Source of the DNA: Antedon mediterranea
Lineage: Eukaryota > Animalia > Echinodermata
NCBI RefSeq assembly: GCF_964355755.1
Contig: NC_092671.1
Location: forward strand, 27,602,070 to 27,666,069
Direction: 5' to 3'
DNA length: 64,000 nucleotides
The position numbers were made by a program, and so were the translations under genes. Position 1 is the first letter of the stretch. The number at the start of each line of letters is the position of its first letter. This document shows positions 2,419 through 2,460 of the stretch, in pieces. Below the pieces are notes generated by a model. The model was not told the origin of the DNA. It saw only the letters and a list, made by a program, of their open reading frames with translations, and did no database searches.

Positions 2419-2460
<42 letters not shown>
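2419..2460 (+). repeat. Ectopic 42-bp exact copy of the 28S H69 / R2 target site in IGS 1
   Basis: AGCGCGGGTAAACGGCGGGAGTAACTATGACTCTCTTAAGGT is identical to 28S positions 1021-1062; both flanks diverge. Confidence 0.97.

What the first reader, a model, noticed from the sequence alone, without database searches (positions are those of the whole stretch)
2419..2460. Every spacer carries an exact copy of the 28S R2-retrotransposon target (-41 to +1): candidate built-in decoy site
Seen: the 42-mer AGCGCGGGTAAACGGCGGGAGTAACTATGACTCTCTTAAGGT matches 28S 1021-1062 exactly, in the same orientation, about 240 bp downstream of the 28S end. It is identical in all six spacers (2419, 13257, 23808, 34352, 45191, 55730). 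Identity stops at TTAAGG|T: 28S continues AGCCAAATG, the spacer continues TAGAAATAAGG. Established: TTAAGG^TAGC is the insertion site of R2 non-LTR retrotransposons, its TTAA is the Pokey (piggyBac-type) site, and it overlaps the I-PpoI homing site. Bombyx R2 protein recognises mainly DNA upstream of the nick, roughly -35 to +1 (from memory). Inference: of about 5.6 kb of rRNA sequence, the only piece I see copied into the spacer is this R2 recognition footprint, ending at the nick. It may be a host decoy or safe-harbour target that diverts R2 binding or insertion away from the essential 28S gene. The alternative is a scar of an R2 5' junction (these often duplicate upstream 28S sequence) spread by concerted evolution.
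Basis: partly seen in the sequence, partly recalled or inferred. Interest (0 to 1): 0.85.

Follow-up and report, generated by a model that had tools for sequence, protein, structure and literature searches.

The report
R2 target copy in rDNA spacer
In all six ribosomal DNA repeats of this window, likely from a feather star, the spacer carries an exact 42-base copy of the spot in the 28S gene where R2 jumping genes cut; it is likely a by-product of R2 activity that is predicted still to attract the R2 enzyme, and a protective decoy role is possible but untested.

Summary
In detail: an exact 42-bp copy of 28S (-41 to +1 of the R2 nick) lies 241 nt after the 28S end in 6 of 6 spacers, and no other spacer-rRNA exact match exceeds 12 nt. 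It keeps both motifs that Bombyx R2 needs for nicking (RUM, RASIN) at native spacing, and is the only such site in the unit besides 28S. A published three-zinc-finger R2 sits in feather-star 28S whose flanks match this window by eye. The copy lacks 28S sequence past +1, which a zebra-finch R2 of that lineage needs for insertion in vitro, so it is predicted to be nickable but poorly fillable. Identity across units is uninformative, because the flanks are identical too. It is not a clean R2 5' junction: it keeps GG and has no ribozyme. Precedent: a 22-bp R1 target in the Drosophila ananassae spacer (PMC2718515). Best reading: an R2-made copy fixed by concerted evolution (0.55). A selected decoy (0.15) or break site (0.07) is not excluded. 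Age, raw-read support and occupancy stay open. The scan noted other 28S target copies (spacer, satellite) in other animals, not this one.

The parts
2419..2460 (+). Exact copy of 28S -41..+1 around the R2 nick (unit 1; further copies at 13257, 23808, 34352, 45191, 55730)
1021..1062 (+). Source stretch in 28S; R2 bottom-strand nick between 1061 and 1062; unoccupied in all six units
   Evidence: numbering from PMC10499050
2426..2438 (+). RUM, upstream motif -34..-22 (core -31..-22 starts at 2429)
   Evidence: PMC10499050; motif scan
2454..2460 (+). RASIN -6..+1 with the required T-6, T-5, A-3 and T+1; predicted nick between 2459 and 2460
   Evidence: PMC10499050
2435..2453 (+). Hairpin inside the copy (helix 69 of the large subunit; name recalled), predicted to fold also in the spacer RNA
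   Evidence: pair probabilities 0.86-0.97
2461..2475 (+). 15-nt right flank of unclear origin: holds a 7-nt repeat of the copy's end, and weakly resembles both 28S +2..+9 with indels and the crinoid R2 5' end
   Evidence: p about 0.006; 0.02-0.10; 0.01-0.09, scoring-dependent
2476..2503 (+). T28-29 tract, likely the Pol I terminator region (inferred), which would place the copy in the 3' ETS
   Evidence: function inferred
2355..2418 (+). Left flank; a homologue (4 differences, one 11-nt insertion) lies on one contig of run X6
   Evidence: record 13
2296..2367 (+). Tandem 9-mer, 8 copies, upstream of the copy
2532..6335 (+). Spacer subrepeat array (about 300-bp units with 5-mer satellites), 9-10 units per spacer

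Best explanation
The spacer holds an exact copy of the 28S sequence just upstream of the R2 cut, which was likely made in an R2-caused event, likely spread to all units by concerted evolution, and is predicted still to be bound and nicked by R2 protein but rarely filled. Shown: the copy, its position, intact RUM and RASIN at native spacing, no 28S homology past +1, no insertion in six units. From papers: R2 nicks the bottom strand at -1/+1, R elements often duplicate or carry upstream 28S, and an R2 is published from matching crinoid 28S. Inferred origin: either (a) repair synthesis copied the neighbouring 28S and ran off at an R2 nick, which sets the right end at -1 and keeps GG, or (b) a cDNA of an uncut 28S-R2 co-transcript landed in the spacer and lost nearly all of its R2 part. 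I favour (a) over (b) about 3:2. Inferred present role: none needed; at most a passive sink that doubles the number of R2 docking sites per unit.
For: The right boundary coincides with the nick (chance 2.4e-4 for one site). A relaxed RUM+RASIN scan of one whole unit, both strands, hits only 2429 and 11869. In PMC10499050 RUM and RASIN determine nicking, and +6..+37 can be mutated. R2-1_ABif (PMC13188248 Table S2) is 4090 nt with a 1071-aa ORF, in 28S flanks that match window ~842-1058 and ~1062-1460 by eye, variable parts included. R2 5' junctions duplicate 21-26 nt and up to 113 nt more of upstream 28S (PMC3774820). R1 copies outside rDNA carry 7-28 nt of upstream 28S, and a 22-bp R1 target sits in the D. 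ananassae IGS (PMC2718515). The right flank carries a 7-nt local repeat (p about 0.006), as expected of an imprecise repair junction. Perfect identity needs no selection if the copy is young: (1-d)^42 is 0.43 at 2% and 0.12 at 5% divergence.
Against: The age of the copy is unknown; if it is as old as the left flank (4 differences in 64 nt plus an indel on the X6 contig), 42 of 42 identity would call for selection or gene conversion. The copy covers the whole upstream footprint and keeps T+1, the base whose change abolished nicking by R2Bm; that fits selection as well (chance of T about 0.3). The right flank matches no source convincingly: with blastn-like scoring the 28S extension scores 0 and the R2 5' match has p 0.04-0.09, and several comparisons were tried. 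No R2 could be looked for in this genome (no assembly held). Positions +2 to +5 all differ from 28S; the paper sections I read changed them only one at a time, so nicking is a prediction.
Confidence: 0.55

Rival explanations
1. Selected decoy: the host keeps a complete R2 docking and nicking site in a dispensable part of every unit; R2 ribonucleoproteins bind and nick there, mostly fail to insert for lack of downstream homology, and fewer 28S genes are disrupted.
For: Complete RUM+RASIN and T+1, 42 of 42 identical, present in 6 of 6 units. R2Tg stays locked on the first target it binds (passage). The D. ananassae spacer site is associated with one R1A and seven R1B elements, so spacer targets can attract elements.
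Against: No sign of selection was measurable; the flanks are as uniform as the copy. One decoy per gene can at best halve the hits. Nicks in the spacer have their own cost. No paper among the searched library joins these terms with 'decoy'. The R2 nick alone explains the right end.
Confidence: 0.15
2. Domesticated break site: R2 cuts the spacer copy and so starts unequal sister-chromatid exchange that restores rDNA copy number without breaking a 28S gene.
For: In Drosophila, R2-made breaks start rDNA expansion (PMC11700107, abstract). R2Tg can make TPRT-independent double-strand breaks (PMC12222951 section 8). A nickable but unfillable site would favour breaks over insertions.
Against: Shown only in Drosophila and suggested to be special to it (PMC13580325 section 7). 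No break or recombination data here; sequence around the copy is invariant in 6 of 6 units.
Confidence: 0.07
3. A chance duplication of conserved 28S, or an event caused by another agent that uses this spot (Pokey-type piggyBac at TTAA, or an I-PpoI-like homing nuclease), fixed by turnover.
For: Short rRNA pieces can be copied by any break repair. Pokey uses this same 28S TTAA. A unit has 36 TTAA words.
Against: The copy runs through TTAA to GG(T), not to the TTAA boundary that a piggyBac insertion leaves; eight of the ten further bases Pokey prefers lie downstream of TTAA, the side the copy does not keep. The I-PpoI site (recalled) extends past +1. A random 42-mer would end here with p about 2e-4 to 2e-3.
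Confidence: 0.13
4. RNA-level role: the copy puts a helix-69 hairpin into the 3' ETS just before the T tract, as a processing, termination or modification-guide decoy signal.
For: The hairpin is complete and predicted to fold; it lies 15 nt before T28.
Against: The region folds no better than shuffles (z +0.4 to +0.9); the enclosing stem has pair probability 0.5 or less; the copy reaches 16 nt left and 7 nt right of the hairpin, to the R2 nick. No RNA data.
Confidence: 0.06
5. Assembly artefact.
For: No reads across the copy were seen.
Against: It recurs at the same place in six spacers that differ from each other, with unique flanks on both sides.
Confidence: 0.04

Closest known systems
22-bp R1 target in the IGS of Drosophila ananassae (Stage and Eickbush 2009, PMC2718515; section 14 and passages read)
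   Same: A short piece of 28S at an R-element insertion site lies in the rDNA spacer.
   Different: [quoted passage not shown] Here it is the R2 site, 42 bp, one-sided (upstream only), present in 6 of 6 units and empty.
28S duplications at R2 5' junctions (Eickbush et al. 2013, PMC3774820; parts 1-3 of 7 read)
   Same: Upstream 28S sequence ending near the nick is copied by R2 activity.
   Different: Those copies are 21-26 nt (longer in horseshoe crab), sit beside an R2 inside 28S and relate to ribozyme cuts at -13, -28, -29 and up to -36. This one starts at -40/-41, lies 1.4 kb away in the spacer and has no R2 body or ribozyme.
R2 target recognition, RUM and RASIN (PMC10499050, parts 1-2 of 5; PMC12222951, passages and section 8; PMC12180492, passages)
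   Same: The copy holds every base these papers name as read upstream of or at the nick.
   Different: It lacks +2 onward, so no primer-template pairing with R2 RNA that ends in 28S sequence; R2Tg showed nicking but no TPRT without such homology.
Pokey elements of Daphnia (PMC3849761, passages)
   Same: Same 28S TTAA; exchange of sequence between an rDNA element and the spacer.
   Different: There spacer sequence is carried inside the transposon; here 28S target sequence is in the spacer, with no terminal repeats or transposase.

Membership tests
R2 nicking substrate (as defined for R2Bm) | RUM at -34..-22 | tested here: met
   identical to 28S; motif hit at 2429
R2 nicking substrate (as defined for R2Bm) | RASIN T-6 T-5 A-3 T+1 at native distance from RUM | tested here: met
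   2454-2460
R2 nicking substrate (as defined for R2Bm) | Actual binding and nicking by the host's own R2 protein | not testable with these tools
   needs an in vitro assay; +2..+5 all differ from 28S
Productive lineage-A R2 insertion site | Downstream 28S homology to pair with the RNA 3' end | tested here: not met
   identity ends at +1; requirement from R2Tg
Productive lineage-A R2 insertion site | Occupied copies in the genome | tested here: inconclusive
   0 of 6 spacer sites and 0 of 6 28S sites filled in the window; no genome held
R2 5'-junction remnant | Junction like the host lineage's R2 (GG lost after TTAA) | tested here: not met
   copy keeps GG; R2-1_ABif and 6 of 7 readable echinoderm junctions lose it (10 of 12 rows seen)
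R2 5'-junction remnant | Left end at a ribozyme cut (-13, -28, -29, up to -36) | tested here: not met
   left end -40/-41; cut sites
R2 5'-junction remnant | R2 5' UTR or HDV-like ribozyme after the copy | tested here: inconclusive
   20-nt anchored match p 0.01-0.09; only scattered 7-nt P1 partner words, no full ribozyme search; the rest of the R2 was not aligned
Host decoy site | Conserved beyond its flanks across species with active R2 | tested here: inconclusive
   one X6 contig matches the left flank; what follows was not shown; metagenome scans empty
Host decoy site | Lowers 28S insertion rate | not testable with these tools
   needs population or experimental data
Pokey/piggyBac junction | Break exactly at TTAA with a terminal inverted repeat | tested here: not met
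   28S identity continues through GG(T); no terminal repeat search was run beyond reading the flank

The most novel reading that the evidence does not exclude
A host has fixed, in every rDNA unit, a half-target for R2 that keeps exactly what the enzyme needs to dock and cut and drops what it needs to insert. It works as a built-in trap that wastes R2 ribonucleoproteins, or that moves R2-made breaks out of the 28S gene into the spacer where they can drive copy-number repair: a sequence-encoded anti-transposon device in cis.
Probability: 0.2. Interest if true: 0.82.

Novelty: new variant of a known kind. Interest (0 to 1): 0.42.

Why it matters
How R2 persists in, and is tolerated by, rDNA arrays is an open question (PMC13580325 section 7). 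A second, dispensable R2 docking site in every unit gives a natural side-by-side test of binding, nicking and insertion in one genome whose lineage has a published R2. If it is selected, it would be a DNA decoy against a site-specific transposon. If neutral, it still shows that R-element target sequence gets copied into spacers and fixed, beyond the one Drosophila R1 case I found in print.

Tried and rejected
No whole genome is held, so no tblastn for R2 or Pokey and no junction census. Run search: 24 runs listed, best share 0.80, about what 28S alone would give; organisms are coded. Contigs of 4 of those 24 runs laid on 1930-2418: X1, X10 and X12 gave mostly the 9-mer repeat; main rDNA contigs were not seen, and holes prove nothing. 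X6 gave low-depth, diverged rDNA pieces, likely orphons. Its record 13 (333 nt, depth 13.5) matches 2355-2418 and runs 229 nt on unseen; an unbroken contig hints at no exact long 28S copy there, but a decayed orphon would look the same, so I draw nothing from it. Metagenome scans with a left-flank word and a 28S 3'-end word: 0 hits each. Four short spacer words were not found in the Hassan et al. supplements (12 of 16 files searched, cells cut at 400 characters, so most of each R2 sequence was unseen). HDV-ribozyme P1 partner words: nothing convincing. Special 3' ETS structure: rejected, z positive. Left-boundary extension into 28S: none (p 0.11-1.0). A piggyBac-like end after TTAA (recalled motif): rejected on reading. 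Literature searches for an R2 site in a spacer or a decoy listed no such paper; the R1 case came from reading PMC2718515. The library lacks most subscription papers. PMC10257491 and PMC5035012 (passages) gave no matching case.

Full report
Observation. The window is a tandem rDNA array with a period of 10.5-10.8 kb. Rfam places 28S at 1-2178 and 9333-13016, 18S at 6788-8592 and 5.8S at 8913-9068. The 42-mer occurs 12 times, six in 28S and six in spacers, with none expected from shuffles. It starts 241 nt after the 28S end, and the next-longest exact match between spacer and rRNA core is 12 nt. The six spacers are all distinct and have 9 or 10 subrepeats, but the 297 nt after the 28S end are identical in all six. 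Identity of the copy among units therefore reflects homogenisation, not selection. None of the six 28S sites and none of the six spacer sites is interrupted.

Organism and R2. Earlier scan notes on this genome call it a feather star (unchecked AI notes). Table S2 of Hassan et al. 2026 (PMC13188248; passages and supplement rows seen, cells cut at 400 characters) lists R2-1_ABif from a feather star: 4090 nt, 1071-aa ORF, three zinc-finger-like motifs by my reading, and the paper places echinoderm R2s in the three-finger branch. Its printed 28S flanks match window ~842-1058 and ~1062-1460 by eye, variable parts included. So this species or a close relative has a full-length lineage-A type R2 at this site. 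I could not search this genome for R2.

What the copy contains. In the numbering of Wilkinson et al. (PMC10499050, parts 1-2 of 5) the copy is -41 to +1. R2Bm needs RUM (-34 to -22) and RASIN (T-6, T-5, A-3, T+1) at fixed spacing; changing T+1 to A abolished cleavage, and +6 to +37 could be mutated. The copy has all of these. A relaxed RUM+RASIN pattern hits only the copy and the 28S site in a whole unit. Lineage-A proteins also hold upstream DNA (PMC12222951 section 8; PMC12180492 passages). But R2Tg showed nicking and no TPRT without downstream 28S homology on its RNA, and the copy differs from 28S at all of +2 to +5. Prediction: docking and nicking likely, insertion poor.

Boundaries. A random 42-nt piece of the 6229-nt core would end within one base of this nick with p 2.4e-4, or 2.4e-3 if ten element sites are allowed (my assumed number). 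The left end shows no extension and is not at a reported ribozyme cut (-13, -28, -29, up to -36; PMC3774820, parts 1-3 of 7). The copy keeps GG, while the published crinoid junction and 6 of 7 readable echinoderm junctions lose it (10 of 12 rows seen). The 15 nt after the copy have three weak readings: 28S +2 to +9 with indels (p 0.02-0.10 with lenient scoring, no signal with blastn-like scoring), a decayed R2 5' end (p 0.01-0.09) and a local 7-nt repeat (p 0.006). None is established after multiple trials, but all describe an untidy junction. No ribozyme signal or unusual RNA structure was found.

Relatives. Of 24 runs listed, four were laid on 1930-2418. One contig of X6 matches the 64-nt left flank with 4 differences and an 11-nt insertion; what follows on it was not shown. 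So the flank has a diverged homologue, but the age of the copy is unknown. Without an age, 42 of 42 identity does not need selection: the neutral chance is 0.43 at 2% and 0.12 at 5% divergence, and conversion from the 28S gene 1.4 kb away could also keep it. Two metagenome scans found nothing. Reads across the copy were not obtained.

Mechanism. Most likely (0.55) the copy is a by-product of R2. Synthesis that uses the 28S bottom strand as template runs off exactly at an R2 nick, which would give a piece that ends in GG; alternatively a cDNA of an uncut 28S-R2 co-transcript was joined to the spacer and lost its R2 part. R elements are known to duplicate and export upstream 28S. Turnover then spread the variant. 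These steps are inferred. Rivals: selected decoy 0.15; domesticated break site 0.07 (R2 breaks start rDNA expansion in Drosophila; PMC11700107 abstract); chance duplication or Pokey/homing-nuclease origin 0.13 (PMC3849761 passages); RNA role 0.06; artefact 0.04.

Known cases. Stage and Eickbush 2009 (PMC2718515, section 14) report a 22-bp R1 target from 28S in the D. ananassae IGS, with one R1A and seven R1B elements in such units. That is the same kind of thing for another element. My searches listed no R2 case and no decoy proposal, within a library that lacks most subscription papers; supplements cut at 400 characters per cell may hide R2 sequence that bears on the junction question. Earlier scan notes describe a spacer repeat copying another 28S element site and a satellite of the R1 site in other animals; I did not test them.

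Verdict. Real, R2-linked, a new variant of a known kind. Function unproven and directly testable. Interest 0.42; the decoy or break-site reading has probability about 0.2 and would deserve about 0.8.

Noticed in passing
window 2393-2409: A 15 of 17 inverted match to 28S 1688-1704, 10 nt before the copy and inside the flank shared with X6; p 0.067 against 1000 shuffles, so possibly chance.
   Followed up: partly
window 2394-2420: A pyrimidine tract ending in TAG at the left edge of the copy reads like a 3' splice acceptor; probably coincidence in a 3' ETS.
   Followed up: no
window 2690-6355: The 9-10 spacer subrepeats share a 190-nt core, about 90% identical to the block just before a TATA...GGGGG stretch at 6340-6353 that looks like the Pol I start (motif recalled); likely spacer promoter or enhancer duplicates.
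   Followed up: partly
window 17342-23567: Unit 2 differs from the other four complete units by at least a substitution in 18S, one in 5.8S and a 3-nt deletion in 28S; possibly a defective unit.
   Followed up: partly
window 2296-2367: The tandem 9-mer is held by contigs of all four runs laid and is extremely deep in X6 (summed depth up to 67,000), so it is a large satellite or a long spacer array there.
   Followed up: no
PMC13188248 Table S2, row R2-1_ABif: By eye, the element's last 9 nt and two 7-8-nt words near its 5' end repeat 28S sequence from just downstream of the target, and it has no poly(A) tail.
   Followed up: no
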